This document shows, piece after piece, positions 4,577-56,751 of a stretch of DNA of 64,000 nt. The position numbers and the translations under genes were made by a program. This DNA comes from a virus: the IMG/VR virus record IMGVR_UViG_3300045988_115142. The stretch is one strand, 5' to 3'. Positions within the stretch are counted from its first letter, which is position 1. Each line of letters opens with the position of its first letter. Under the pieces are notes generated by a model. That model did not search any database and was not told the origin of the DNA. It saw only the letters and a list, made by a program, of their open reading frames with translations.

Positions 4577-4706
4577 TATATATCATCCTTTCATTAAACG
4601 AAACGGGGGTATTTTAGTAATTTTACTACTATGTTTTTGTAATCTATTTGTACCGGCACATCATTATAAAATGCGAAAGTTTATAATTTTTAATAGGAGA
4701 ATAAAA

Positions 4707-5048
4707 ATGGCTAATTTATTAAAAGAGACTCTAGAAGTATTAGATAATTTAGGGATAAAAGAAGAAGAAGTAATATACGTTGTTAATAGAGAGAAACCTA
4801 AAGATTGTAAGTTTATGACTTGGGAAATGTTTAAGGATATAGCTAGATATAAAACATACGATGAAGGTCTTGGTACTGTTGAGGTTAATACCGATATTAT
4901 CATCTATACTGTCGACTATATTCTATACCGTCATGAATATGATGGGGCAGAAAGATGGGAAGAAATCCCAACACCAGAACACATGCACGAATTATTATCC
5001 GGTAAATCACCAGAAATATTCTCTATTGATGGTCATGATTTTTACTAA
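4707..5048 (+). CDS. Hypothetical protein
   Basis: Track ORF 4671..5048. The ATG at 4707 has TAGGAGA upstream at good spacing, so the MANLLKETLE... form is preferred. No motif recognised. Confidence 0.7.
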   Translation: MANLLKETLEVLDNLGIKEEEVIYVVNREKPKDCKFMTWEMFKDIARYKTYDEGLGTVEVNTDIIIYTVDYILYRHEYDGAERWEEIPTPEHMHELLSGKSPEIFSIDGHDFY

Positions 5049-5870: not shown

Positions 5871-6379
5871 TAAGATATATAGTCGGTTATTCTATGACTA
5901 TACAAAAACTAAGATGGTTTGCTCCTATTCTTTACTCTATAGTATTATGGTTCTATACTCTTAGCTTCAAATCCACTATAAAGCGATTATTTAAGAGAAA
6001 TAATCTCTATTGGGCAGCATTATGGACTTTTGAGTTAAGTAAAAATAATACTAAGACACATAGCCTATATCTAAATAAACCTATTGGTAGTAAGCTTAAG
6101 TATAATATGATTAGGTTTGTAGGACCAAGTTATAAAGTAACTAAAGATGATATGTACTTTATCGATATCGGTATATTTAGAAACCGTTTGATGAGATATA
6201 AGGTCTGTCCTTATGATGATGATAGAGTTTCTTGGTCATTATATGAATTAAAACCGAATAGGTATATAGATTCAGGTAATTATAGATTACCTCAATTAGA
6301 ATCTGAAATAACCAATGAGTTAGTAGAAATATGTGTACAACTATTCTTAGAACAAGCTAATGAAATTTATAATAAGTAA
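5852..6379 (+). CDS. Hypothetical protein with N-terminal hydrophobic segment
   Basis: Track ORF with AAGGAG 6 nt upstream of the ATG. Overlaps the upstream gene by 19 nt. Hydrophobic stretch LRWFAPILYSIVLWFYTLSF. Followed by a strong terminator. Confidence 0.7.
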   Translation: MVERILIRYIVGYSMTIQKLRWFAPILYSIVLWFYTLSFKSTIKRLFKRNNLYWAALWTFELSKNNTKTHSLYLNKPIGSKLKYNMIRFVGPSYKVTKDDMYFIDIGIFRNRLMRYKVCPYDDDRVSWSLYELKPNRYIDSGNYRLPQLESEITNELVEICVQLFLEQANEIYNK

Positions 6380-6395
6380 TTTTGCGAAAAAGCCT

Positions 6396-6419
6396 CCGTT
6401 ACCAGATATCTGGTAACGG
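6396..6419 (+). terminator. Intrinsic terminator (perfect 24-nt palindrome CCGTTACCAGAT/ATCTGGTAACGG plus T-run)
   Basis: Perfect inverted repeat read directly, followed by GACTTTTATC. Lies 17 nt after the stop of 5852..6379. Confidence 0.8.
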
Positions 6420-6442
6420 GACTTTTATCATAAAATTCTCTT

Positions 6443-6460
6443 CCGGTTTTTCTAAACCGG
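6443..6460 (+). other. Second small hairpin CCGGTTT-TTCT-AAACCGG
   Basis: 7-bp stem with a 4-nt loop, read directly. No clear T-run, so the role is unclear. Confidence 0.5.
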
Positions 6461-6516
6461 CAAAATAAACCAAGAACCAAGAATTGACTTATAAAGTTTG
6501 TAGTTAATTCTATAGA

Positions 6517-6546
6517 TTGAGATAATCTACAGTGTGTATTTATAAT
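6517..6546 (+). promoter_or_regulatory. Candidate sigma-70/SigA-type promoter (TTGAGA - 18 nt - TATAAT) pointing into the ORF-free region
   Basis: -35 TTGAGA at 6517-6522 (5/6 to TTGACA) and consensus TATAAT at 6541-6546 with an 18-nt spacer. It lies downstream of the terminator. Such matches can occur by chance in an AT-rich genome. Confidence 0.4.
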
Positions 6547-6862
6547 GTATTTAGCTTTTTTCTGATTTGTCTTATATATGATTTTGATAAGTTTACAGTT
6601 TATCTAAAATAAATAAGAAATGTGGTTAAGTCTAATTCTATTACATCATCTTATTCCATATCAAAAATATAAAAGGTAATGTGATGTTTTGCGAATATGA
6701 ATAAAATGAAGGGTTCTTGGTTATGAATTATTAGAAGTATAACAGGGTAATCGTTTAGATTGTTGTTTGACGTATTATAAATGAAAGATGGTCTAAATCG
6801 TTACCACAATTATATTCTAATTATTTATATGTAAATTGATGTAATAAAAAATAAAGTAGGGT

Positions 6863-6886
6863 GGTCTACTCCATATGGAGTAGACC
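6863..6886. other. Perfect 24-nt palindrome GGTCTACTCCAT/ATGGAGTAGACC inside the ORF-free region
   Basis: Read directly. Not followed by a T-run on the + strand. Confidence 0.6.
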
Positions 6887-6901
6887 GAGTACACACATCA
6901 T

Positions 6902-7021
6902 TAGTTTGGAGCAGCAATGTACGCTTAAGGAAGAAGATACTAGTTTGGCATTAAACGTACAGTATTAAGAGTCATGTTAAGTAGTGTAAGACAGAAAGGT
7001 CCACAAGGAGCTTTAGTTTGG
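6902..7021 (+). repeat. Three direct copies of TAGTTTGG (6902, 6941, 7014)
   Basis: Exact 8-mers within 120 nt. An inverted partial copy CAAACTAAAG at 7030-7039 pairs with the third copy. Confidence 0.6.
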
Positions 7022-7339
7022 CCATCAAACAAACTAAAGTATTATATTATCTATAAGGAAAGTTACTATAAACGAACAACAGTAGTTATTTAAGCATAGG
7101 AGTTTTTATAGACCTGATTTTAAATATGTTAATCAACTAAAAACCATATTTAAAACCAACACGAACGGTCTATATCATGTCAAGTATCTTTTTAGTCAGC
7201 AGGCTAAAAACGAATATAAACTAATCACCAAATTTATATTCTTGTAAGTTCACATTTGTTATGGCTGTGTAAAACAAAATGTGACTGATTAAGGTATATA
7301 TTTTATAAGAGGAAACAAAACTAGTATCTTTCTTCCTTA
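6926..7339 (+). ncRNA. Candidate structured RNA domain (~410 nt): 21-bp closing helix around five local hairpins; class unknown
   Basis: 6926-6946 (TAAGGAAGAAGATACTAGTTT) pairs with 7318-7339 (AAACTAGTATCTTTCTTCCTTA), with one bulged T. Enclosed hairpins: 7011-7020/7030-7039 (10 bp); 7107-7114/7167-7174 (8 bp) containing 7118-7128/7145-7155 (11 bp); 7189-7195/7204-7210 (7 bp); 7213-7220/7233-7240 (8 bp); 7250-7257/7277-7284 (8 bp). There are stops in all frames. Strand is assumed from flanking genes and the upstream promoter. Confidence 0.4.
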
Positions 7340-7420
7340 CAATATAGTTCTCAAATTAAAATGTAAAGTTGCTCTAACACGACCATAAGAGACACTTTAA
7401 GACAATTTTAGGGGGATAAT

Positions 7421-8545
7421 ATGCAAGATTTTTTCGTTGAAGCCCATATATCGGATATACATTTTGGAGCTATGGATCCAAAAGAGCAATATAAACTGTT
7501 AAAAGACCAATTCATAGATCGGCTTATGACCCTACCGATTCTAGATATAGTATCGGTTAATGGTGATATTTTTCATCATAAATTTATGGCTAACTCTGAG
7601 TCTGTTTCGTTAGCTTGTTATTTTATTTCTGATTTGATCAAAGTATGTGCAATCAAAAATGCTACATTGTTAATTATTGCCGGTACTTACTCCCATGATG
7701 CGGATCAAATAAAATTATTCTACCCTATGGCTGAACAAGCTATAGCAAATGGGACAGACGTTCGGATTATCGAAGAAGTTAAATTCGAAACAGTCAAAGG
7801 TAAAAGAATTCTATGTATTCCAGAATTATATGGAAAAGGTTCTGAATACTATGAGCAATTCTTATACCAATCTGGATTCTATGATGCATGTTATATGCAT
7901 GGTACATTCGTAGGTGCTATCTTTGGTAAAGATATACCTAATTTGAATTCAGATAGAGAACCAGTATTCTATATGGATCATTTCAGACACTGTGCTGGTC
8001 CAATTATATCTGGTCATGTGCATACACCTGGGTGTTATGCAAAACATTTCTACTATTGTGGTTCTCCATATAGATGGCAATTTGGTGAGGAAGAAGAAAA
8101 AGGATTCATCATCATGATGCAAGATATGAGAACTCGACAATATGCCGTTCATTATGAACCAATCATATCTGATAAGTATATTACTATCAATATGGATTCC
8201 ATGATTAATGGAGACCCTAAAGATATGATAGCATATATTGCTCAAACTATGAAAGAAGAAGATATTAAATATCTTCGAGTTCGATTTACTGAGAGCAATC
8301 CAGAGAATTTAGAGATTATTCAGACATTTTATCGGAATAATCCTAACGTAAAAATCGAAACTAAAATTCATAATGACAATATAGTACAGAATCTTCAAGA
8401 GATTCAAAACGAGTACGAAAATTATGATTATCTATTCGATAAGAATATTACGCCGGAGAATAAATTGGTTCGATATATTAATCAATCCGAGGGAAGCGTA
8501 TTTTTGACTTACGAAGATTTAATCGGAATCTTACAAAATATTTAA
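7421..8545 (+). CDS. Mre11/SbcD-like metallophosphoesterase nuclease (T4 gp47-like)
   Basis: Calcineurin-like phosphoesterase motifs in canonical order: ISDIHFG (DxH), VNGDIFH (GD), IIAGTYSHD (GNHD variant), MHGTF and ISGHVHTPG (GHxH). SD GGGGGA upstream. Confidence 0.7.
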   Translation: MQDFFVEAHISDIHFGAMDPKEQYKLLKDQFIDRLMTLPILDIVSVNGDIFHHKFMANSESVSLACYFISDLIKVCAIKNATLLIIAGTYSHDADQIKLFYPMAEQAIANGTDVRIIEEVKFETVKGKRILCIPELYGKGSEYYEQFLYQSGFYDACYMHGTFVGAIFGKDIPNLNSDREPVFYMDHFRHCAGPIISGHVHTPGCYAKHFYYCGSPYRWQFGEEEEKGFIIMMQDMRTRQYAVHYEPIISDKYITINMDSMINGDPKDMIAYIAQTMKEEDIKYLRVRFTESNPENLEIIQTFYRNNPNVKIETKIHNDNIVQNLQEIQNEYENYDYLFDKNITPENKLVRYINQSEGSVFLTYEDLIGILQNI

Positions 8546-15503: not shown

Positions 15504-15583
15504 TTTTTAATATCCGGCTAACAATATTGTAAGAATACTCTTATATGAGTATGATGCTATTTTTATCGCATGGAGGTGAAATA

Positions 15584-19698: not shown

Positions 19699-19710
19699 AA
19701 ATAAATGAGA

Positions 19711-19736
19711 GGTGGTACCGAATATTCGGTACCACC
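19711..19736 (+). terminator. Intrinsic terminator, perfect 26-nt palindrome with AATATT centre
   Basis: GGTGGTACCGAATATTCGGTACCACC, located 13 nt after the topoisomerase stop. Confidence 0.75.
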
Positions 19737-19764
19737 CTTAATTTCGCAAAAGGAGGAATTTGTT

Positions 19765-20306: not shown

Positions 20307-20454
20307 TTATCAACTTTTCATTTTTTATCTATTTTTATACAATCCAGTAAGCGTTAACGTTCCACGGGCGATTAAGAAAGCTCTGGAAACAGCATATTTG
20401 CCTGAGTTATAAGGCTATATAATTTTCATAAGAAGAGGTAGGAGTGATTAGAAA

Positions 20455-21546: not shown

Positions 21547-24240
21547 ATGATTAAACATATTGAAAAACGTGACGGGAGTATTGTTGAATTTGACCGTACT
21601 AAAATTTTAAATGCAATTCTTAATGCTATGAATTCTGTGGGTGCTGTAGATGAAGAAGCAGCCAACAATACAACCACAGCTGTAGTTCGTAATTTAAATA
21701 AATTAGATTCCGATACAGCTGCTGTAGAAGATGTACAAGATTTAGTTGAAGTTCAATTAATGAAGAAATATCCAGACGTTGCTCGTGAATATATCACATA
21801 CCGTAAACGTCGTAATGATATTCGTACAGCTAAAACAGAAACAATGAAAGAAGTTATGAGTATTCTTAAATGCGAAGACGTCAAAAACTCTAATGCTAAC
21901 GTTGATGAATACTCCTTTGGTGGTCGTAAGAAAGAAGCATCTGATGTAATTCAAAAAGAAATTGCATTGAATACTCTTATCGACCCAGACATTGCTGAAG
22001 CTCACCGCAAAGGTATTCTTTACATTCATGACTTATCTGAATATGCAGTAGGTCTTCATAACTGTTTGAATGCCGATATTGCTTATTGCTTAGCTCATGG
22101 TTTCGAAGCTCGTAACGGTGGTGTCCGTCCAGCTAATTCCTTTGCAACAGCATGTCAATTAATTGCAGTTATTTTCCAAATTCAATCCCAATGTCAATTC
22201 GGTGGTATTGCAACTACTAAGATTGACTTTGACTTAGCTCCATATGTACGTATTTCCTTCTTGAAACATTTCAAACGTGGTTTACGTTACTTTGGTACAG
22301 GTGTTGGTAACGATTATGATACATTCGTATCTAAATATGGTAAAGATGTAGTCAATACAGCATCCATCGAAGCTGATTGGAATATCTTCAAAGACTTCTG
22401 TACTCCAGCATACATTTATGCTTTAGAAGAACTCGAACGCGAGGGTAAACAAGGTGCTCAAGCACTTTATCACAACTTAAATACTTTAGAATCTCGTGCT
22501 GGTTCTCAAGTACCATTCACTTCCATTAACTTTGGTTTAGATACTTCTTGGGAAGGTCGTAAAGCTACACAATGGATGATGAATGCATCTCTTGATGGTA
22601 TTGGTATTAACCATACTACTTCCATCTTCCCTATTTCCATCTTTGTTTATAAGAAAGATGTAAATGACCGTCCTGGTACAGACAACTATGATTTGAAGAA
22701 ACTTGCTATCAAATCTTTAACTAAACGTATTTATCCTAACTTCGTAAATGCTGATTGGCAATCCAATGTTCCAGATGTACACCCAATTCGTATTGTAAAT
22801 AAAACAGTATTCCATCCAATTGAATCTGAAGTAACTTTACGTATTGACCATCATGTTGGCGAAACTAAAGTATTTGATCCATTGAACTTCAAGAAAACTT
22901 TAGTAAGCGATTATGACAAACTTACTTTGAAACGATTGATTAATTCTATTCCTGAAGAATATGTATCTGCTCCAGATGAAGATGGTATCCAAGTAATAGA
23001 TCTTCGCTTCACTGATAGACGTTATTTGATTAAAGATTCAACTTCTAAATTCAATAAATACAATACTGATCGTAATGATCATTATACTAAATTGAATTGG
23101 TTAGCTGTAGATACAGAAACTAATGAAGTAGCAATCACCACAGAATCTTTCAATTACGATATCGAATGTACTGAAGAAGAAGGTCCTTACAAAGCTAAAG
23201 TACTTCGTACAATGCAACTCCCTAAACCTGAATACAATAACGATACAGAAATGTCTACCATGGGTTGCAGAACGCTAGTTGGTTATGACTTACATGGTAT
23301 GGGTTATCAAAAGACTGGTCGTGGTAACTGTACACCTGTAACTATTAACTTAGCTCGTATTGGTATTCGTCATGGTATTTGCTTAGGTGAACGTAAAGAA
23401 GCTGATATTGATGGTTTCTTCAAAGAACTTGACGAAATCTTGGAAATGTGTGAACGTGAACTTCTTAAACGTTTCGAACACATCTGTTCTCAAGATATTC
23501 GTTCTGGTTTCTTCACTTACCATAACCATGTAGCTGCTGATACCGAAGCTGCTCTTGAGAAGGGTTCCATTTATGAAACAATGAGACACTTCTCTCAAGC
23601 ATTAGGTTACATTGGTGTGGCTAATATGTGCTATGCTATGTTTGGTAAATACCATAACCAAGATAAAGACGTATTGAAATTCGCTGTATCTGTAGTTAAA
23701 CATATTGCAGACTATGCTGATGAATGCAAGAAACGTCATAACTTGAACTTCGCAGCATATGCTACTCCTGCAGAATCAACTTGTTTAACTTTAGCTTCCA
23801 AACTTCAAAAAGAATTTGGTAAGATTAAAGGTGTATGTGATCGTGAGTACTTAACTAACTCCCATCATGTTCCAGTATATGAAAACATTTCCGTTCGTGA
23901 TAAAATTGATACAGAAGCTGAATTCTCCATCTATCCAACAGCTGGTTGTATAATGTACGCTGAAATGTCCTCTGGTGTAATTGGTAATCCTAGAGCAGTA
24001 GAAAAGATTATTGATTATGCTATGGCTGACACTCGTGTTCCATACTTCGCTATCAACTTCCCAATCGATAGCTGTGATGATTGTGGATACACTGGTGAAA
24101 TCAATACAGATACTTGCCCAGTTTGTGGTTCTACTAATATCAACCGTTTACGTCGTGTAACTGGTTATATTACTACAGACTATCGCAAATTCAACAAAGG
24201 TAAATTCTGTGAAGTTAATGACCGAGTAAAACACATTTAA
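21547..24240 (+). CDS. nrdD: Anaerobic (class III) ribonucleoside-triphosphate reductase
   Basis: N-terminal ATP-cone (IEKRDGSIVEFDRTKILNAI), active-site MGCR, C-terminal Zn ribbon CDDCGY...CPVCGS and glycyl-radical motif RRVTGY. Confidence 0.9.
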   Translation: MIKHIEKRDGSIVEFDRTKILNAILNAMNSVGAVDEEAANNTTTAVVRNLNKLDSDTAAVEDVQDLVEVQLMKKYPDVAREYITYRKRRNDIRTAKTETMKEVMSILKCEDVKNSNANVDEYSFGGRKKEASDVIQKEIALNTLIDPDIAEAHRKGILYIHDLSEYAVGLHNCLNADIAYCLAHGFEARNGGVRPANSFATACQLIAVIFQIQSQCQFGGIATTKIDFDLAPYVRISFLKHFKRGLRYFGTGVGNDYDTFVSKYGKDVVNTASIEADWNIFKDFCTPAYIYALEELEREGKQGAQALYHNLNTLESRAGSQVPFTSINFGLDTSWEGRKATQWMMNASLDGIGINHTTSIFPISIFVYKKDVNDRPGTDNYDLKKLAIKSLTKRIYPNFVNADWQSNVPDVHPIRIVNKTVFHPIESEVTLRIDHHVGETKVFDPLNFKKTLVSDYDKLTLKRLINSIPEEYVSAPDEDGIQVIDLRFTDRRYLIKDSTSKFNKYNTDRNDHYTKLNWLAVDTETNEVAITTESFNYDIECTEEEGPYKAKVLRTMQLPKPEYNNDTEMSTMGCRTLVGYDLHGMGYQKTGRGNCTPVTINLARIGIRHGICLGERKEADIDGFFKELDEILEMCERELLKRFEHICSQDIRSGFFTYHNHVAADTEAALEKGSIYETMRHFSQALGYIGVANMCYAMFGKYHNQDKDVLKFAVSVVKHIADYADECKKRHNLNFAAYATPAESTCLTLASKLQKEFGKIKGVCDREYLTNSHHVPVYENISVRDKIDTEAEFSIYPTAGCIMYAEMSSGVIGNPRAVEKIIDYAMADTRVPYFAINFPIDSCDDCGYTGEINTDTCPVCGSTNINRLRRVTGYITTDYRKFNKGKFCEVNDRVKHI

Positions 24241-25702: not shown

Positions 25703-28105
25703 ATGGCTGAAAAAATTATCCAAGCTAATATCTTGGAACAATCTAAACGTGACTTGACTACTTATGCAATATATGTAGCTCGTCGTCGTGCATTACCAAA
25801 TCCTTTCGATGGATTAAAACCAGTTCATCGGAAGATTCTATATTCTCTATTTTATGATTTTGGTAAACAAACTCGTCGTAGAGAAACAATTAAAACTCAA
25901 GCAGTTGTAGGTAACGTATTACAGAAGTATCATCCACATGGTGATTCATCTGTAAATGCTTCTATCAAACCTATGACTAACTGGTTTGAATCTTATATCC
26001 CAACTATTGACCATCAAGGTTCATTCGGTAATATGTCTGGAGATGGTGCAGCAGCTCCTCGTTATACAGAAGTAATGATTTCCGATTATGGTCTTGAATG
26101 TGTAGTTGGTGATCTTGCACAATCTCCAAACTCTACTGATTGGCAAGAAACTTATAATGGTTCTGAAAGAGAACCAATCTACTTCCCAGCAGTTGTACCA
26201 AACTTGTTAGTTAATGGTGCATTTGGTATTGCTGTAGGTTTAAGAACTTCTGTACCTAAGCATAACATTTCTGAAGTAATTGCAGCAACTATTAATTTAA
26301 TTCAAAACCCTAGTGCTGATGTAGTATTATTGCCAGATGACTGTTGTGGTTGTGATATTGTAGAAGCAGACTTCAAAAAGATTTCCGAAACAGGTAAAGG
26401 TACTTTTAAAGTACGTGCTCAAACAGAAATTTGCGAGTTCAATAAGAAACCTGCAATTAAAATCACTTCTTTACCACCTATGGTATATCTATCTAATATT
26501 CAAAGTAAGATTGAAAAATTAGTAGAAGGTAATGTATTACCACAAATCGAAGAAGTACTCGATGATTCTCAAGTAGATGAAAAGAATGTAGCATTCGATA
26601 AATTCACAGCTTATATTATGCTTAAGAAAGGCTGTGATCCTAACTACGTTAGAGATTGTTTATATTCTCTTACAGATTTAGAGAAAACTATTTCTGTAAA
26701 TATGGAAGTAGTTTATAATGAAGCACCAGCTTTATTGAACTATAAACAATATTTGGAAATCTTCATTAACTTCCGTCGTGAACGTAAGTATCGTGCTTTC
26801 TCCAATATCTTATCCGAAGCTAAAACAAAATTCCATAGAATGGAAGCATTTGTTAACTTATTAGAAACAGGTAAGATTGATGCTGTAATCACTAAGATTC
26901 GTTCTAAGAATCTTAAAGAAGCTGAGTTACAAGAATTCTTGATGAAAGATATTAAGATGAAGAACCCATTGACACCTTTGCAATGTAGTTACATCTTATC
27001 TGCTCAACTTAAAGCACTTTCTAAAGAACGTTTGGGGTATTACAAAGACCAAATGGCTGAAGCAGCTAAAGTAATCGATCAATGCTTCCACACAATTACA
27101 CATCCAGAAGAAATTGATCGTATTATTATCGAAGAACTCAAAGCAGCTGATAAGAAGTTTGGTTGTCCTCGTCGTAGTAAGTTCATTTCTGCTTCTGAAG
27201 CAGCTGGTATCCCAGAAGGTACTTTCAAAGTAGTACTTACAGAAAAAGGTATTATTAAGAAATGCGACCAATCTGAAAATATCCGTGAATTGAAAGATGA
27301 CCGCATCAAGTTGAACTTGGTTGTTGATAATAAAGACAATCTACTTCTATTCAGTCGTCTTGGTAAGGTATTTAAAGTACCAGTAAACAAAGTTCCATTC
27401 GGTAAAGGTGCTTCTGGTGGTGTAGATCTTCGTGTTCTTATGAAGAAATATACTGGTGAAGGTATTTGTACTATTATTCCAGAATCTGTAGTTGAACAAA
27501 TCATCGAAAATAGTAAAAAGAACAAAGAACGTGTTCTTGTTTATGTGATGACAAAGAATGGTATCTTTAAGTCTATGGATATTGCTGAATTACTTGGAGT
27601 TCCATTAAGTGGGTTAATCTATACTAAGTTATCTGACAATGATATGGTAGCTGATATCATTTTCATGGGTCAGTATAACGAAATGATTATTTACTCTAAT
27701 AATAAAATCCTTAGAGTTCCTGGAACTGAAGCTCCTATGCTTACACGTTCAGCTAAAGGTGTTATTGGTATGAAATCTAAGAATAAAGTCGATGGTTTCA
27801 TCTGTTTAACTCCTAATTCTACTGACGTTGTAATCATTACAGCTTCTGGTAGAGTAAATCGTATTCCATTAGCTATTGTACCATTGTCTAAACGTGGTAT
27901 GGCAGGTATGACTGGTATTAAATTGAATAAAACTGATTCTATCGTTTCTATTCATGTATGTAATGCTCATGATACTCTTAATGTAGTATCTATGAAAGAA
28001 AAATACCAAATTCCTGTAGCTAGTATTCCAGAAGGTTCTAGTGTTAGTACTGGTGCTAAACTTATTGATGCTTCTGGTATCATTCATACTTCTATTTCTC
28101 GATAA
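25703..28105 (+). CDS. Type II DNA topoisomerase, DNA breakage-reunion subunit (GyrA/ParC-like; T4 gp52-like)
   Basis: GLKPVHRKILY, KYHPHGDSS, and the catalytic Tyr context AAAPRYTE. The long C-terminal region has repeated G-rich beta-strand segments. Confidence 0.9.
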   Translation: MAEKIIQANILEQSKRDLTTYAIYVARRRALPNPFDGLKPVHRKILYSLFYDFGKQTRRRETIKTQAVVGNVLQKYHPHGDSSVNASIKPMTNWFESYIPTIDHQGSFGNMSGDGAAAPRYTEVMISDYGLECVVGDLAQSPNSTDWQETYNGSEREPIYFPAVVPNLLVNGAFGIAVGLRTSVPKHNISEVIAATINLIQNPSADVVLLPDDCCGCDIVEADFKKISETGKGTFKVRAQTEICEFNKKPAIKITSLPPMVYLSNIQSKIEKLVEGNVLPQIEEVLDDSQVDEKNVAFDKFTAYIMLKKGCDPNYVRDCLYSLTDLEKTISVNMEVVYNEAPALLNYKQYLEIFINFRRERKYRAFSNILSEAKTKFHRMEAFVNLLETGKIDAVITKIRSKNLKEAELQEFLMKDIKMKNPLTPLQCSYILSAQLKALSKERLGYYKDQMAEAAKVIDQCFHTITHPEEIDRIIIEELKAADKKFGCPRRSKFISASEAAGIPEGTFKVVLTEKGIIKKCDQSENIRELKDDRIKLNLVVDNKDNLLLFSRLGKVFKVPVNKVPFGKGASGGVDLRVLMKKYTGEGICTIIPESVVEQIIENSKKNKERVLVYVMTKNGIFKSMDIAELLGVPLSGLIYTKLSDNDMVADIIFMGQYNEMIIYSNNKILRVPGTEAPMLTRSAKGVIGMKSKNKVDGFICLTPNSTDVVIITASGRVNRIPLAIVPLSKRGMAGMTGIKLNKTDSIVSIHVCNAHDTLNVVSMKEKYQIPVASIPEGSSVSTGAKLIDASGIIHTSISR

Positions 28106-28116
28106 AGATAATAAAT

Positions 28117-28142
28117 CCCATAACCTAATATTAGGTTATGGG
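28117..28142 (+). terminator. Intrinsic terminator, perfect 26-nt palindrome
   Basis: CCCATAACCTAATATTAGGTTATGGG followed by TTATCTTTTATT. Confidence 0.8.
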
Positions 28143-28164
28143 TTATCTTTTATTGGAGGTTAAA

Positions 28165-31531: not shown

Positions 31532-31599
31532 TATAATGAAAATCCTCCTTTTCTTTTTGAACTTAATATCATTACTTAACTGTTTTAAGCGGAAGATTA

Positions 31600-31623: not shown

Positions 31624-31784
31624 TTAATCCGGAAGGTTAGAATTAAAGATAGAAATCGTCGCATTAACAGGGATTAGCTATTGATCTCTACTAATATGTT
31701 TCCTCTAGTGTAAAAACCAATCTATGCTGAACATTTGTATAATCCTACCCTACCTAAATTAATTAAAGGAGGTACTTACGCTAA

Positions 31785-34759: not shown

Positions 34760-34783
34760 AGTCAAACTAAAGGAAGAACATTT

Positions 34784-34807
34784 CCCATACCCAATATTGG
34801 GTATGGG
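34784..34807 (+). terminator. Intrinsic terminator, perfect palindrome
   Basis: CCCATACCCAATATTGGGTATGGG, extendable by an outer helix (AGGAAGAAC/GTTCTTTC), followed by a T-rich tract. Confidence 0.8.
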
Positions 34808-34840
34808 AGTTCTTTCGCAAAATCTATAAGGGGGTAAAGT

Positions 34841-36232: not shown

Positions 36233-36940
36233 ATGGACTTCAACTCAAGAGAAGATTTACAAAAAGAATTGAAAAAGGTAGACGATGATATAGCGAAAGC
36301 AGAAATAAATCTTACTACTTTACGTCTATATAGACAAACTATAGCTGACCGATTAAGTCAAGTAATGGAAAGTAAATGTAAGATTGTCAACGTTGGAGAT
36401 TTCGACGGCTCTATAGATCCTATCAAAGCTTGTTTAAATTCTTTAAATGATTCTGATGAAATTAGAATCGAAGATGTGTCTTACATGTTTGGTATCTCTG
36501 TGGCTGTATTATTGACTAAGATCGATACTAAAGAATTGAGAGTATTCAAATACTCCAATAAAAGAAATAGCCGTACTGGTAAAGTATTGACAGTAAAATA
36601 CATAAAGAAACTCTTAGAAGAACATAATAGCGATGATATCAAAAAGCGTAAATATGTAGAATATATATTTAAAGAGTATCATGAAAATGCTATGTCTTTA
36701 AATATTAAGAGTAGAGTAAAAGACCTACTATATAAACCTTATGATAATCCTGAGTATGAAAATTTGACTCTAAAACAACTAATCATTGGTGGTTTTAATC
36801 GTGGGTTTATTAAGTTTACTCACTATAATACTATGATTAAGATGCTTGATTCTTTCAACTGTGAGTATACTCTAGATTATTCTTCTTACAGAGTTATGGA
36901 AAAATCTACAAATAAACTAATTAGGGTATATTCTAAATAA
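36233..36940 (+). CDS. Coiled-coil plus HTH protein, paralog C
   Basis: The ATG at 36233 is preceded by AAGGAG. N-terminal REDLQKELKKVDDDIAKAEINLTTLRLYRQ. HTH block DEIRIEDVSYMFGISVAVLLTKI. Second block LTLKQLIIGGFNRGFIKFT...CEYTL. Confidence 0.7.
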   Translation: MDFNSREDLQKELKKVDDDIAKAEINLTTLRLYRQTIADRLSQVMESKCKIVNVGDFDGSIDPIKACLNSLNDSDEIRIEDVSYMFGISVAVLLTKIDTKELRVFKYSNKRNSRTGKVLTVKYIKKLLEEHNSDDIKKRKYVEYIFKEYHENAMSLNIKSRVKDLLYKPYDNPEYENLTLKQLIIGGFNRGFIKFTHYNTMIKMLDSFNCEYTLDYSSYRVMEKSTNKLIRVYSK

Positions 36941-36945
36941 TATAT

Positions 36946-36969
36946 TGGGAGCTGAATATTCAGCTCCCA
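36946..36969 (+). terminator. Intrinsic terminator, perfect palindrome
   Basis: TGGGAGCTGAATATTCAGCTCCCA followed by TATTTTTATTTTTTATTTTTT. Confidence 0.85.
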
Positions 36970-36992
36970 TATTTTTATTTTTTATTTTTTAA

Positions 36993-48408: not shown

Positions 48409-48434
48409 CCCATTACCCAATATTGGGTAATGGG
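48409..48434 (+). terminator. Intrinsic terminator, perfect palindrome
   Basis: CCCATTACCCAATATTGGGTAATGGG followed by GTTTCTTTCAAAAAAA. Confidence 0.8.
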
Positions 48435-55481: not shown

Positions 55482-56594
55482 ATGCAAAAAGACGATACTG
55501 CCTTGTTCGAAAGCATTGGTGAGTTACGATACGAACTGATGCAATTAAAGGTTGATCCTGATAATTCTGCGTTACTATCTTCCATTAAGAGAATACTTAA
55601 CGATATTTTCGATGACTCGAAATGTGAAGACGTTATCTTTACTAATAATACAGATAAAATCTTCTTTGGTCTAACGGTAATGCCCGTGTTTAATGACTCT
55701 CAACAGGTCGTCGATATAGTTTTAAACAGTACTAACTTTGCTATATCCAAATATCGTGTTGAGATCGATTCTAAGCTTCTTGATAATTACACAGGATTGA
55801 ATATTGATGAAATTACTTCTATCTTATTACACGAAGTAGCTTCTCTGGTATACAATGACACTCCTGCTCGTAAAGCTCGCTACTTAATCGATTTGTGTTT
55901 AACTCAAAATAATACAAATATCAAGATCTCCAGCTATATCTCCTATGTGGAGTTATTAGCTTATGGTCTTAAAGAAGCGATCCGTAAATCAGCTTCCATT
56001 TTCTACGTTAAAGATAATGGTGCTATTCAAGAATTTGATGACGCATTAGAATTGACTCGATTCTTAGAAAGTGCTATTGCTAAATTAGATGCTCTTGGTT
56101 ATCTATATGATAAAGGTACCAATGCAGCTGAAGTAGTTATTAAATGGACTTTACGTCTATATAAGGATATCCTTACATACCGTATTCCAGCTTTACATAC
56201 TATCAATAAATCTTGTTTAGTAACAGCATCTGAATTGGAACAAGATGAGTTGAAGAATGTTGCTCGTCATTTAACTCGTATTGATGATTCTTTCTTGATT
56301 CAAGAGTCTGGTATTCTTGCCGATACTCCTGATAAGAAAGATATTGTTGCTAAGTTAAATGAACGCAAATCTATTAAGAGTTTCTTTGATACATTTGCAG
56401 AAACAGTTGCTCTTGGCAAAACTGCAAAGACTATTACTGAAGCTCAAGATTTATTCTTTAAATCTAACAGCGAGATGAGTCAAATCAAATATTATCTAGA
56501 AAATAATGAGCTTGATGCAAAGACAGCTAAGGATTTGGACAGATTGTATTGTCGATATGATATCATCAGGACTTCCTTACATACTAAGATCTAA
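55482..56594 (+). CDS. Hypothetical protein with degenerate HExxH-like site (LLHEVASL)
   Basis: GAGGAGGG upstream. DEITSILLHEVASLVYN resembles the metalloprotease helix of 30428..31531 but lacks the second His. Confidence 0.7.
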   Translation: MQKDDTALFESIGELRYELMQLKVDPDNSALLSSIKRILNDIFDDSKCEDVIFTNNTDKIFFGLTVMPVFNDSQQVVDIVLNSTNFAISKYRVEIDSKLLDNYTGLNIDEITSILLHEVASLVYNDTPARKARYLIDLCLTQNNTNIKISSYISYVELLAYGLKEAIRKSASIFYVKDNGAIQEFDDALELTRFLESAIAKLDALGYLYDKGTNAAEVVIKWTLRLYKDILTYRIPALHTINKSCLVTASELEQDELKNVARHLTRIDDSFLIQESGILADTPDKKDIVAKLNERKSIKSFFDTFAETVALGKTAKTITEAQDLFFKSNSEMSQIKYYLENNELDAKTAKDLDRLYCRYDIIRTSLHTKI

Positions 56595-56608
56595 TCTTAA
56601 TATATAAT

Positions 56609-56634
56609 GAGAGTACCCAATATTGGGTACTCTC
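56609..56634 (+). terminator. Intrinsic terminator, perfect 26-nt palindrome
   Basis: GAGAGTACCCAATATTGGGTACTCTC followed by TTTCTTTTCG. Confidence 0.85.
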
Positions 56635-56751
56635 TTTCTTTTCGTAGATTGTTAATTTTAATATTTAATATAACAAACTAGTAAAAGTAATTATAAGCAT
56701 TAGCTTATTATTGTATTTAGTTAAATTATATTTTTTTAGGAGGCTATTATC

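What the first reader, a model, noticed from the sequence alone, without database searches (positions are those of the whole stretch)
6926..7339. 21-bp long-range helix (one bulge) closing a ~410-nt domain of five consecutive hairpins
This is read directly from the sequence. TAAGGAAGAAGATACTAGTTT (6926-6946) is the reverse complement of AAACTAGTATCTTTCTTCCTTA (7318-7339) apart from one extra T. A 20+ bp complement about 370 nt apart is far beyond chance for a 1-kb AT-rich region. Five non-overlapping local hairpins lie between the arms. They are 7011-7020/7030-7039 (10 bp); a nested pair 7107-7114/7167-7174 enclosing 7118-7128/7145-7155 (8 + 11 bp); 7189-7195/7204-7210 (7 bp); 7213-7220/7233-7240 (8 bp); and 7250-7257/7277-7284 (8 bp, extendable by 3 bp). 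A closing helix around a multi-branch junction is the signature of a folded RNA domain rather than a promoter. Two alternatives fit the same inverted repeat: a MITE-like nonautonomous element with 21-bp terminal inverted repeats (I see no flanking target-site duplication), or a DNA cruciform/origin element.
Basis: seen in the sequence. Interest (0 to 1): 0.85.

Follow-up and report, generated by a model that had tools for sequence, protein, structure and literature searches.

The report
Helix-clamped noncoding RNA gene, jumbo phage
The 21-bp long-range inverted repeat is real, and it most likely forms the closing stem of a ~490-nt noncoding RNA made from the opposite (minus) strand of an uncultivated jumbo phage; this would be a new candidate phage RNA of unknown role, and there is no transcript evidence yet.

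Summary
Arms 6926-6946 and 7318-7339 pair over 21 bp with one bulged T, and only 1 of 120 simulated 64-kb sequences does as well. The five inner hairpins exist but are not beyond chance (z -1.7).

The window is a ~255-kb jumbo phage from metagenomes that encodes its own multisubunit RNA polymerase. The repeat lies in a 1041-nt ORF-free gap upstream of an SbcD-like/DnaB operon.

It is not a multi-copy MITE. No other copy, empty site or flipped allele turned up in IMG/VR, GTDB genomes or JGI metagenomes.

Two related lineages carry an inverted repeat at the same place. Their interiors are unalignable and 191 or 237 nt long, yet the arms stay complementary.

In all three lineages an AR9-type late-promoter motif, AAC(A/T)-N6-TA, sits on the minus strand. 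Its predicted start falls on the first bases of the arm. A palindromic hairpin with a T-rich tail only on the minus strand follows the other arm.

Best reading (confidence about 0.45): a late minus-strand RNA, 7338 to ~6845, whose 5' end is clamped by a terminal helix.

No Rfam family matches and the function is unknown. I rate it a new member of a known kind, of moderate interest.

The parts
7338..7349 (-). Predicted late-type promoter P(-). It reads AACTATATTGTA on the minus strand (AAC[A/T]-N6-T(-1)A(+1)). T(-1) is 7339 and the predicted start A(+1) is 7338.
   Evidence: Motif found. The same motif abuts the arm in L048/L157 (AACTATATCATA) and L051 (AACATATCTATA). The AR9 consensus comes from PMC7598289 and PMC9209446. 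The AACT variant is the positionally conserved operon promoter in L072/L075. Of 149 such motifs in the window, this is the only one whose downstream 19 nt has a complementary partner.
7318..7339 (-). Right arm, which is the 5'-terminal arm of the predicted RNA (5'-AAGGAAGAAAGAUACUAGUUU from 7338).
   Evidence: Invariant in 25 strain haplotypes.
6947..7317 (-). Enclosed body of 371 nt, containing local hairpins H1 7011-7039, H2 7107-7174, H3 7189-7210, H4 7213-7240 and H5 7250-7284.
   Evidence: Fold z is only -1.7. It is not conserved between lineages. H2 and H5 keep their stems in divergent strain L092 through GC>AT and CG>TA double changes.
6926..6946 (-). Left arm, which is the 3' arm of the closing helix.
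   Evidence: Invariant in strains.
6887..6925 (-). 39-nt spacer between the closing helix and the terminator hairpin. It contains the ACACACA tract shared with L048/L157.
6845..6886 (-). T2: perfect palindrome GGTCTACTCCATATGGAGTAGACC (6863-6886) followed, on the minus strand only, by ACCCTACTTTATTTTTTA. This is the predicted terminator of the RNA.
   Evidence: I7. The homologous hairpin in L157 (2543-2520) is flagged as terminator-like on the minus strand only. The window copy itself is not flagged by the scan, because its T run starts 7 nt after the stem.
7376..7387 (+). P(+): AACACGACCATA, 34 nt before the ATG of the SbcD-like gene. It is the divergent partner of P(-).
   Evidence: The motif lies 22-39 nt upstream of this gene in 8 of the 10 gap-bearing relatives scanned and 33 nt upstream in L053 (read from the sequence). 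The background rate is 0.12 per 95-nt window.
6380..7420 (.). The whole 1041-nt ORF-free gap. It comprises T1 6395-6420, unit A 6421-6862, T2, the inverted-repeat domain, and divergent promoters plus leader 7340-7420.

Best explanation
The inverted repeat is the terminal (closing) helix of a phage-encoded noncoding RNA of about 490 nt, transcribed from the MINUS strand.

Proposed mechanism:
- The phage's own non-virion RNA polymerase initiates at an AR9-type late promoter (AACTATATTGTA, 7349-7338).
- The transcript therefore begins at 7338, the second base of the right arm.
- It runs through the 371-nt body, the left arm and a 39-nt spacer.
- It ends at the palindromic hairpin T2 (6886-6863) and its U-rich tail.
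- The first ~20 nt pair with the segment ~390 nt downstream. The 5' end is then buried in a 20-21-bp stem with one bulge, and the body is closed into one domain. This is the usual design of stable RNAs.

What the comparisons show directly: the repeat itself; its uniqueness; its maintenance across three lineages with an unconserved interior; and the positional coincidence with a conserved promoter-type motif.

What is inferred: transcription, the strand, the ends, and that the helix serves stability or processing.

The RNA's target or role is unknown. My guess is a late-expressed regulatory or decoy RNA whose body evolves fast.
For: (1) The helix is real and rare.

(2) Related lineages carry an inverted repeat at the same site.
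- L051/L052: 24 nt, 92% complementary, 191 nt apart. Score 19 against 10.5 +/- 1.5 in simulations.
- L048/L157: 17-19 nt, 88%, 237 nt apart.
- The interiors share no detectable similarity.
- The promoter plus 5'-arm region of the window and L157 is homologous (p about 0.001), with 3-4-nt indels matched in both arms.

(3) AAC(A/T)-N6-TA is a genuine conserved element in this phage group.
- It lies 25-52 nt upstream of the late virion gene in 7 of 9 lineages.
- It lies 22-39 nt upstream of the SbcD-like ATG in 8 of the 10 gap-bearing relatives scanned, and 33 nt upstream in L053.
- It matches the published AR9 late consensus (PMC7598289, PMC9209446).
- The phage encodes RNA polymerase beta-like subunits.

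(4) In all three repeat-bearing lineages the motif sits on the minus strand, with the predicted +1 at base 2-4 of the arm.
- The 19 nt from T(-1) find 16/19 Watson-Crick pairs (18/19 with G-U) in L048, and 18/19 (19/19 with G-U) in L051. None of 2000 shuffles matches this.
- Seven other motif sites tested the same way give chance values.
- Among 149 motif sites in the window, only this one has a partner.

(5) T2 and its L157 homologue have a T-rich tail only on the minus side. The L157 copy is flagged as a minus-strand terminator.

(6) Strand comparison.
- The minus-strand folds have the lower z in all three lineages: -6.4 vs -5.1, -6.7 vs -5.4, and -4.5 vs -3.5.
- Their centroid energies are closer to the minimum free energy.
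- Three of the five imperfect helix positions in relatives are A-C on plus, which is G-U on minus.

(7) Both arms are invariant in 25 strain haplotypes. H2 and H5 show compensatory double changes in strain L092.

(8) Precedent: RNA-seq has found ORF-free transcribed units of 236-619 nt in jumbo phage PA5oct (PMC7318152).
Against: - There are no transcript data of any kind.
- The promoter motif is short. Four hits in the 1041-nt gap is roughly the chance number. The window's copy has T rather than the consensus A at -8.
- The window's T2 is not called a terminator by the scan, because its U run starts 7 nt after the stem. L051's hairpin is not flagged either.
- The inverted repeat extends 1 nt (window, L048) or 3 nt (L051) beyond the predicted +1. 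An RNA-level constraint does not require that.
- The strand evidence (z differences of about 1 SD, and a 3:1 G-U asymmetry) is weak.
- Only three lineages carry the repeat. Sister lineage L071 lacks it, so formal covariation statistics are impossible.
- Within the species the arms never vary, which says nothing about pairing.
- Independent acquisition of related repeat-bounded DNA cannot be excluded.
Confidence: 0.45

Rival explanations
1. Plus-strand structured RNA. The domain is part of a long 5' leader, or a separate RNA, on the same strand as the SbcD-like/DnaB operon. This is what the first reader implicitly assumed. The helix might serve as an RNase III-type processing stem.
For: - The helix and hairpins form equally on the plus strand.
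- T2 has no T run on the plus side, so plus-strand transcripts from upstream could read through into the domain. One candidate source is the sigma70-like site at 6517-6546, which matches 11 of 12 positions.
- No plus-strand terminator lies between 7339 and the gene.
Against: - No AAC(A/T)-N6-TR motif and no early-type TATATAATAT motif precedes the left arm.
- The operon has its own positionally conserved promoter 34 nt before the ATG.
- Plus-strand folds have weaker z and poorly defined centroids in all three lineages.
- Mismatches in relatives are mostly A-C on this strand.
- This phage type is thought not to rely on host sigma70 polymerase (PMC7598289).
Confidence: 0.12
2. Orphan MITE-like insertion. 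It would be a non-autonomous element of the IS630/Tc1-mariner style, with ~20-bp terminal inverted repeats. It would have landed in a TA just upstream of the operon promoter and now be immobile.
For: - Terminal inverted repeats, noncoding content and a 414-bp size all fit.
- All three repeats start TA and end TA, compatible with a hidden TA duplication.
- Removing the element restores a terminator-to-ATG spacing of 122 nt (window) or 112 nt (L051). That is close to the 107-111 nt of relatives without it.
- Presence is patchy in the clade.
Against: - The arms are single-copy. IMG/VR holds only the two arms per genome of this same phage. 596 Gb of GTDB genomes gave 10 unpaired 18-mer hits and no paired arms. 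The window has none, and GenBank phages show no similarity.
- No empty-site allele appears in the 16 same-species loci aligned, nor in the 12 further same-phage contigs with the left flank found in JGI.
- An ancient orphan insertion would have lost arm complementarity, as its interior lost all similarity. Three independent insertions at the same TA with no donor copies is unparsimonious.
- The TA is equally explained as T(-1)A(+1) of the promoter motif.
Confidence: 0.13
3. DNA-level element. Options are an invertible promoter segment (inverton), a pair of inverted protein-binding sites that loops the DNA, or part of a replication origin next to the replication genes.
For: - Inverted repeats of 17-24 bp flank a 190-370-bp segment directly upstream of an operon, which is the classic inverton layout.
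- The site lies beside the helicase and nuclease genes. It is about 3 kb from the cumulative GC-skew minimum and gene-strand switch.
Against: - The flipped junction was absent from JGI metagenome contigs. All assemblies examined have one orientation.
- No recombinase is among the neighbouring or large genes scanned.
- There are no iterons or direct-repeat families.
- Cruciform extrusion with a 190-370-nt loop is physically implausible (general knowledge).
- The promoter-like motifs lie outside the repeat, not inside it.
Confidence: 0.1
4. No function. The repeat is a by-product of an inverted duplication or template switch in a fast-evolving cargo hotspot, together with chance hairpins.
For: - The locus is hypervariable among relatives: 14 to 1041 nt, with different cargo genes.
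- The interior hairpins are at chance level.
- A per-window p of 0.01 is not extreme for a scan over many windows.
Against: - Three lineages carry significant repeats at the same position relative to the same conserved motif.
- The arms are homologous, with coordinated changes, between the window and L157.
- The arms and neighbouring blocks are the most conserved parts of the gap among strains.
Confidence: 0.15

Closest known systems
ORF-free transcribed units (ncRNAs/sRNAs) of jumbo phages: PA5oct ncRNA001-004 (236-619 nt; PMC7318152) and intergenic or 5'UTR sRNAs of 201phi2-1/phiKZ (PMC11512511)
   Same: A jumbo-phage intergenic region lacking ORFs and of similar size. There is no similarity to known RNA families and the function is unknown.
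   Different: Those were found by RNA-seq, whereas this one is predicted only. No sequence homology was found. Here the defining feature is a 5'-end-to-3'-region closing helix that starts at the predicted transcription start. [quoted passage not shown]
AR9/PBS1 late transcription units driven by non-virion RNA polymerase (promoter 5'-AACA-N6-T-A/G(+1); PMC7598289, PMC9209446)
   Same: The same short motif is positionally conserved before a virion gene and before the SbcD-like operon in this phage group. It also abuts the arm on the minus strand. The phage encodes multisubunit RNA polymerase pieces. Its DnaB and SbcD-like proteins are 29-31% identical to those of AR9.
   Different: The relationship is very distant. 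It is unknown whether this phage has uracil DNA or a gp226-like specificity subunit. The window's P(-) has T at -8. Promoter function was not tested.
Stable RNAs closed by a 5'/3' terminal stem (6S RNA, phi29 pRNA, adenovirus VA RNA) and rRNA-operon RNase III processing stems (from general knowledge)
   Same: A long-range helix of about 20 bp pairs the 5' end with a distal segment and encloses the RNA body. It is followed by a terminator.
   Different: No covariance-model match to any such family. The body is not conserved. Processing or protein binding is untested.
Correia-type / IS630-derived bacterial MITEs (from general knowledge)
   Same: Terminal inverted repeats of about 20-26 bp, possible TA ends, an intergenic position next to a promoter, and a transcript that could form a dsRNA stem.
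   Different: This is single-copy everywhere searched. At 414 bp it is larger than typical Correia elements, which are 100-155 bp. No transposase partner is known. Arm complementarity is retained across deep divergence.
Invertible promoters (invertons) of gut bacteria (from general knowledge)
   Same: An inverted-repeat-flanked noncoding segment immediately upstream of an operon.
   Different: No flipped allele. No recombinase was seen nearby. The promoter motifs lie outside the repeat.

Membership tests
MITE (IS630/Tc1-mariner-like, e.g. Correia) | Terminal inverted repeats bounding a short noncoding element | tested here: met
   21/22-nt arms at 6926-6946 and 7318-7339. No ORF longer than 39 aa lies inside.
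MITE (IS630/Tc1-mariner-like, e.g. Correia) | Target-site duplication flanking the repeats | tested here: inconclusive
   Both ends read TA. Because TA is palindromic, a TA duplication cannot be told apart from two extra helix pairs. No longer direct repeat flanks the arms.
MITE (IS630/Tc1-mariner-like, e.g. Correia) | Multiple dispersed copies in the same or related genomes | tested here: not met
   The window has 1 copy. IMG/VR holds only the two arms per genome of this phage, plus one unpaired hit. GTDB genomes gave 10 unpaired 18-mer hits and no paired arms. GenBank phages show no similarity.
MITE (IS630/Tc1-mariner-like, e.g. Correia) | Presence/absence (empty-site) polymorphism | tested here: not met
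   Every same-species contig examined carries the element in place: 16 loci and 12 JGI contigs. One of them, L079, is a low-coverage contig that breaks at 7142 and has no right arm. More distant relatives lack the element, but their flanks are unalignable.
Invertible promoter (inverton) | Both orientations present in populations | tested here: not met
   The junction diagnostic of the flipped state gave 0 hits in JGI metagenome contigs. All assemblies are collinear. Read-level data are not available.
Invertible promoter (inverton) | Associated site-specific recombinase | tested here: inconclusive
   None among the 19 ORFs scanned. The rest of the ~255-kb genome was not examined.
Known structured RNA families (Rfam 15: group I/II introns, 6S, GOLLD, ROOL, OLE, riboswitches and others) | Covariance-model match at or near the gathering score | tested here: not met
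   No hit at gathering threshold in the window or in five related loci. The best E-value hits in 6300-7500 score 15-17.5 bits against thresholds of 39-90.
Independent ncRNA gene (promoter - structured body - terminator) | Promoter placed to give the proposed 5' end | tested here: met
   AAC(A/T)-N6-TA lies on the minus strand with +1 at base 2-4 of the arm in the window, L048/L157 and L051. This is evidence at motif level only.
Independent ncRNA gene (promoter - structured body - terminator) | Intrinsic terminator at the 3' end | tested here: inconclusive
   The L157 homologue is flagged on the minus strand. The window's T2 and the L051 hairpin are not flagged, because the T run is offset 5-7 nt.
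Independent ncRNA gene (promoter - structured body - terminator) | Structure conserved with compensatory change | tested here: inconclusive
   The closing helix is kept in three lineages with different sequences and coordinated indels. That is too few sequences for statistics. The arms are invariant within the species. H2 and H5 show three double changes in one strain.
Independent ncRNA gene (promoter - structured body - terminator) | A discrete transcript | not testable with these tools
Replication origin | Iterons or initiator boxes plus an AT-rich unwinding element | tested here: not met
   Only weak two-copy direct repeats in 6500-7800. GC content is 29-31%, like the rest of the genome.

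The most novel reading that the evidence does not exclude
The locus encodes a previously unrecognised class of jumbo-phage late RNA. Only the promoter-anchored 5'-terminal ~20-bp dsRNA clamp is conserved, while the 190-370-nt body turns over rapidly. Such an RNA could be a decoy or sponge for host RNA-sensing or RNA-degrading defences. Alternatively it could be a structured primer or regulator for replication next to the helicase operon.
Probability: 0.12. Interest if true: 0.75.

Novelty: new member of a known kind. Interest (0 to 1): 0.45.

Why it matters
Noncoding RNAs of jumbo phages are barely explored. The known ones came from RNA-seq of a few cultured Pseudomonas phages.

If this prediction is right, it gives three things:
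- A sequence-defined ncRNA gene (promoter, 5' end, closing helix, terminator) in an uncultivated jumbo phage that recurs in many metagenome assemblies.
- Evidence that the AR9-type late promoter grammar (AACA-N6-TA) extends to a distant metagenomic clade.
- A simple search rule for finding more such RNAs in phage metagenomes: a promoter motif whose downstream 20 nt has a distal complement before a terminator.

If it is wrong, the locus is simply a variable intergenic cargo site and is of little consequence.

Tried and rejected
- Known RNA families: Rfam at gathering and permissive thresholds, and tRNA/tmRNA, gave nothing.
- DNA similarity of the 1041-nt gap to 50,697 GenBank phages: none.
- Pseudogene idea: proteins encoded at the same locus in relatives (the L049 373-aa protein and others) give no tblastn signal in the gap. 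No ORF longer than 39 aa is present.
- MITE: arm scans of the window, IMG/VR and GTDB found no further copies.
- Inverton: the flipped-junction scan was negative.
- Empty site or other alleles: a left-flank scan of JGI contigs returned 12 same-phage contigs, all in the standard arrangement. One low-coverage contig (L079) breaks at 7142 into unrelated sequence and is probably chimeric.
- Covariation within the species: the arms never vary. L051-type strains are nearly identical.
- Shared motifs among the three RNA bodies: no 8-mer is common to all three. One 13-nt match between the window and L051 (AAAATATATACCT) lies on opposite sides of the helix.
- Early-promoter motif (TATATAATAT) on the minus strand inside the domain: only 1-mismatch hits that lack the downstream ATGA part, so I rejected them as promoters.
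- RNA duplex scans between flanks were uninformative.
- Wider IMG/VR relatives (38 distinct upstream regions): the gaps are short or AT-simple, with no comparable repeat.
- Base composition and skew do not discriminate the strand.
- A second closed RNA in unit A (6421-6862): no 5'-3' complementarity at its motif sites.
Full report
**1. Observation**

The sequence shows TAAGGAAGAAGATACTAGTTT at 6926-6946. Its reverse complement, with one extra T, is at 7318-7339. The repeat finder reports this as two overlapping perfect blocks, 13/13 and 10/10.

I searched for long-range inverted repeats with a loop of 20-1500 nt, allowing one bulge or mismatch. The pair is the best in the 64-kb window. Only 1 of 120 first-order-Markov simulations of the window reached 21 pairs. 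Exact 12-14-nt long-range repeats are frequent here and mean nothing.

The five local hairpins exist and appear in the minimum-free-energy fold. The interior on its own folds at z = -1.7 on both strands. The z of about -4 for the whole segment therefore comes from the closing helix.

**2. Context**

- The window comes from a ~255-kb phage assembled many times from metagenomes.
- It encodes a PD-(D/E)XK exonuclease, an SbcD-like metallophosphatase (7421-8545), a DnaB-like helicase, a Dda-like helicase, both topoisomerase II subunits, NrdD, a ligase and GroEL.
- It also encodes RNA polymerase beta-like proteins.
- Its SbcD-like and DnaB proteins are 29-31% identical to those of Bacillus phage AR9/PBS1.
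- It is therefore a jumbo phage that encodes its own RNA polymerase.
- The repeat lies in the largest ORF-free gap of the window, 6380-7420.
- The gap has two perfect palindromic hairpins. T1 (6395-6420) is flagged as a bidirectional terminator. T2 is at 6863-6886.
- Rfam, tRNA and GenBank-phage searches find nothing.

**3. Mobile-element and DNA-switch tests**

- The arms are unique in the window.
- An exact-pattern scan of IMG/VR finds only the two arms in each contig of this same phage, plus one unpaired hit.
- A scan of one genome per GTDB species finds ten unpaired hits, about the number expected for an 18-mer, and no paired arms.
- Sixteen same-species loci are 93-98.7% identical over the gap.
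- Twelve further same-phage JGI contigs all carry the element in the same orientation.
- One low-coverage contig (L079) breaks into unrelated sequence at 7142 and is probably a chimera.
- The junction expected after inversion is absent from JGI metagenome contigs.
- There are no iterons.

Multi-copy MITE, inverton and iteron origin each fail a defining test.

**4. Relatives**

The nearest protein relatives are 71-57% identical in the SbcD-like protein, and nothing lies between 98% and 71%. They keep the gene order, but the upstream gap varies:

| Locus | Gap and content |
|---|---|
| Window | 1041 nt |
| L048/L157 | 976-977 nt |
| L071 | 450 nt |
| L051 | 390 nt |
| L011-17, L072, L075 | 107-111 nt |
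| L018 | 52 nt |
| L020 | 14 nt |
| L049, L101 | an extra 359-373-aa gene |
| L053 | a minus-strand ORF read by eye |

The gaps are not alignable to one another, apart from the hairpins.

Two lineages have a long-range inverted repeat at the equivalent place:
- L051/L052: 3696-3719 and 3911-3934, 24 nt, 92%, score 19 against 10.5 +/- 1.5 in simulations.
- L048/L157: 2649-2665 and 2903-2919 in L157, 17 nt at 88%, extendable to 19.

L071 has nothing above chance. In a protein tree these five lineages form one clade, and the repeat is patchily distributed within it. Thirty-eight more distant IMG/VR relatives have short gaps and no comparable repeat.

**5. The promoter coincidence**

The published late-promoter consensus of AR9's non-virion polymerase is 5'-AACA-N6-T-A/G(+1) (PMC7598289, PMC9209446).

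In this phage group the motif is positionally conserved in two places:
- 25-52 nt upstream of the late virion-protein gene in 7 of 9 lineages. The window, L051 and L071 all read AACATAGTAGTA.
- 22-39 nt upstream of the SbcD-like ATG in 8 of the 10 gap-bearing relatives scanned, and 33 nt upstream in L053. The window copy is 7376-7387, AACACGACCATA. L072 and L075 use AACTATATCATA.
- The background rate is 0.12 per 95-nt window.

The same motif lies on the minus strand directly against the right arm in all three repeat-bearing lineages:
- Window: 7349-7338, AACTATATTGTA
- L048/L157: AACTATATCATA
- L051: AACATATCTATA

The predicted +1 is therefore base 2 (window, L048) or base 4 (L051) of the arm.

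I took the 19 nt that begin at T(-1) and searched downstream for a complement:
- L048: 16/19 Watson-Crick pairs, 18/19 with G-U.
- L051: 18/19, and 19/19 with G-U. None of 2000 shuffles matches either.
- Seven other motif sites (five in unit A of the window or L048, two in L071) give chance values.
- Of the 149 motif occurrences in the window, only 7339(-) has a partner, at 19/19 with one bulge. The next best is 15/19.

**6. The 3' end and the strand**

- T2 has a T-rich tail only on its minus side. So does its homologue in L048/L157, which shares the ACACACA flank and differs by compensated stem changes.
- The L157 copy is flagged as terminator-like on the minus strand only.
- The window's T2 and L051's hairpin are not flagged, because the T run starts 5-7 nt after the stem.

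Folding the predicted RNAs against the same coordinates on the plus strand:

| Lineage | Minus z | Plus z | Minus MFE / centroid | Plus MFE / centroid |
|---|---|---|---|---|
| Window | -6.4 | -5.1 | -117.8 / -112.2 | -114.6 / -90.0 |
| L051 | -6.7 | -5.4 | -75.2 / -73.6 | -84.8 / -60.9 |
| L157 | -4.5 | -3.5 | -120.5 / -119.7 | -99.4 / -83.9 |

Three of the five imperfect helix positions in the relatives are A-C on plus, which is G-U on minus. One goes the other way. This strand evidence is consistent but weak.

**7. Orthology and maintenance**

- The promoter plus 5'-arm region of the window and L157 is significantly similar (p about 0.001).
- Both arms share the blocks TAAG...AAGAT.
- L157 has 3-4 extra nucleotides between these blocks in both arms.
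- The bodies share nothing and differ in length: 371, 237 and 191 nt.
- Within the species the arms and their neighbours are invariant, while the middle of the domain is polymorphic.
- Hairpins H2 and H5 keep pairing in the divergent strain L092 through three double changes.
- The simplest reading is that an old unit has had its terminal helix maintained by selection for pairing.

**8. Interpretation**

I commit to a minus-strand, late-transcribed noncoding RNA of about 490 nt (7338 to ~6845). Its 5' end is sealed in a ~20-bp terminal helix, and it is followed by a spacer and a terminator hairpin.

The repeat, its rarity, its recurrence and the motif geometry are shown. Transcription, the strand, the ends and any stabilising or processing role of the helix are inferred. 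Function is unknown. Precedents are the ORF-free transcribed units of PA5oct (PMC7318152) and the sRNAs of 201phi2-1/phiKZ (PMC11512511).

The rivals keep appreciable weight: a plus-strand leader or RNA, an orphan MITE-like relic with hidden TA duplication, a DNA-level element, and no function.

Points against my model:
- The motif carries little information.
- The window's copy has T at -8.
- The terminator tail is offset.
- The repeat extends 1-3 nt beyond the predicted +1.
- Only three lineages carry it.
- There are no RNA data.

**9. Verdict**

Novelty: a new candidate member of a known kind, namely phage-encoded structured noncoding RNA. Interest is moderate.

Noticed in passing
window 6421-6862 (and L157 2043-2519): A second ORF-free unit of about 440-480 nt lies between two perfect palindromic hairpins, T1 6395-6420 and T2 6863-6886. 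The same T1...T2 layout is kept in the L048/L157 lineage although the sequence is unalignable. Two minus-strand AACA-N6-TA motifs (6677-6688 and 6756-6767) show no 5'-3' complementarity.
   Followed up: partly
window 13028, 27733, 38659, 47613, 52310 (+) and 7090-7101 (-): The 12-mer TCCTATGCTTAA occurs 6 times (up to 1 mismatch) against 0.54 expected. The five plus-strand copies sit in five different genes, all in the frame that encodes (P/L)-M-L-K. The sixth copy is on the minus strand inside the inverted-repeat domain. The motif is specific to this species among the fetched loci.
   Followed up: partly
window 11584, 14452, 16140, 24243, 44785 (+): Exact TATATAATAT, usually followed by N4-ATGA, lies in intergenic regions upstream of plus-strand genes. 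It is a candidate early (virion polymerase) promoter motif of this phage.
   Followed up: partly
window 4624-4635 (-), 7376-7387 (+), 15520-15531 (+), 31573-31584 (-), 31730-31741 (+), 56672-56683 (+): AR9-type late-promoter motif AACA-N6-TA, often ending in GTA, lies 14-69 nt upstream of same-strand genes. It is positionally conserved across diverged relatives before the virion-protein and SbcD-like genes.
   Followed up: yes
window e.g. 34783-34808, 48409-48434, 36935-36980, 56593-56650, 19703-19744, 28105-28154: A family of perfect palindromic hairpins lies in the intergenic regions and after genes: 9-10 nt, then a central A(A)TAT(T), then 9-10 nt. They are probably terminators and are often bidirectional.
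   Followed up: no
window 4671-5048; loci L079, L025: The 125-aa ORF (phrog_3972) is missing from strain contig L079 through a clean ~395-bp deletion. It is not called in L025. This is a presence/absence polymorphism of a small gene next to the divergent promoter region.
   Followed up: no
L079 (window-equivalent 7142 onward): A low-coverage (3.5x) contig follows the phage sequence to the loop of hairpin H2. It then switches to unrelated, coding-looking sequence. It is a likely assembly chimera, but could be a real rearrangement.
   Followed up: partly
L074 1-5908: The contig carries the SbcD-like and DnaB genes as a perfect inverted duplication around a 178-nt centre. It is probably a fold-back assembly artefact.
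   Followed up: no
L049 2785-3906, L101 1860-2939, L053 1-90: The site upstream of the SbcD-like gene is a cargo hotspot. Some relatives carry an extra 359-373-aa plus-strand gene of unknown function. L053 seems to carry a divergently transcribed minus-strand ORF with its own AACAGATAGGTA motif.
   Followed up: partly
window 21547-24240: The NrdD-like ORF matches its profiles in two blocks (residues 3-409 and 568-897), with about 160 unmatched residues between them. This could be an insertion such as an intein. It was not checked.
   Followed up: no
window 7288-7304 and L051 3731-3747: A shared 13-17-nt stretch, A(A/G)GGTATATATTTT, lies just inside the closing helix. It is next to the right arm in the window but next to the left arm in L051. 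The plus-strand sequence also resembles the promoter/RBS region before gene 20455 (20411-20440).
   Followed up: partly
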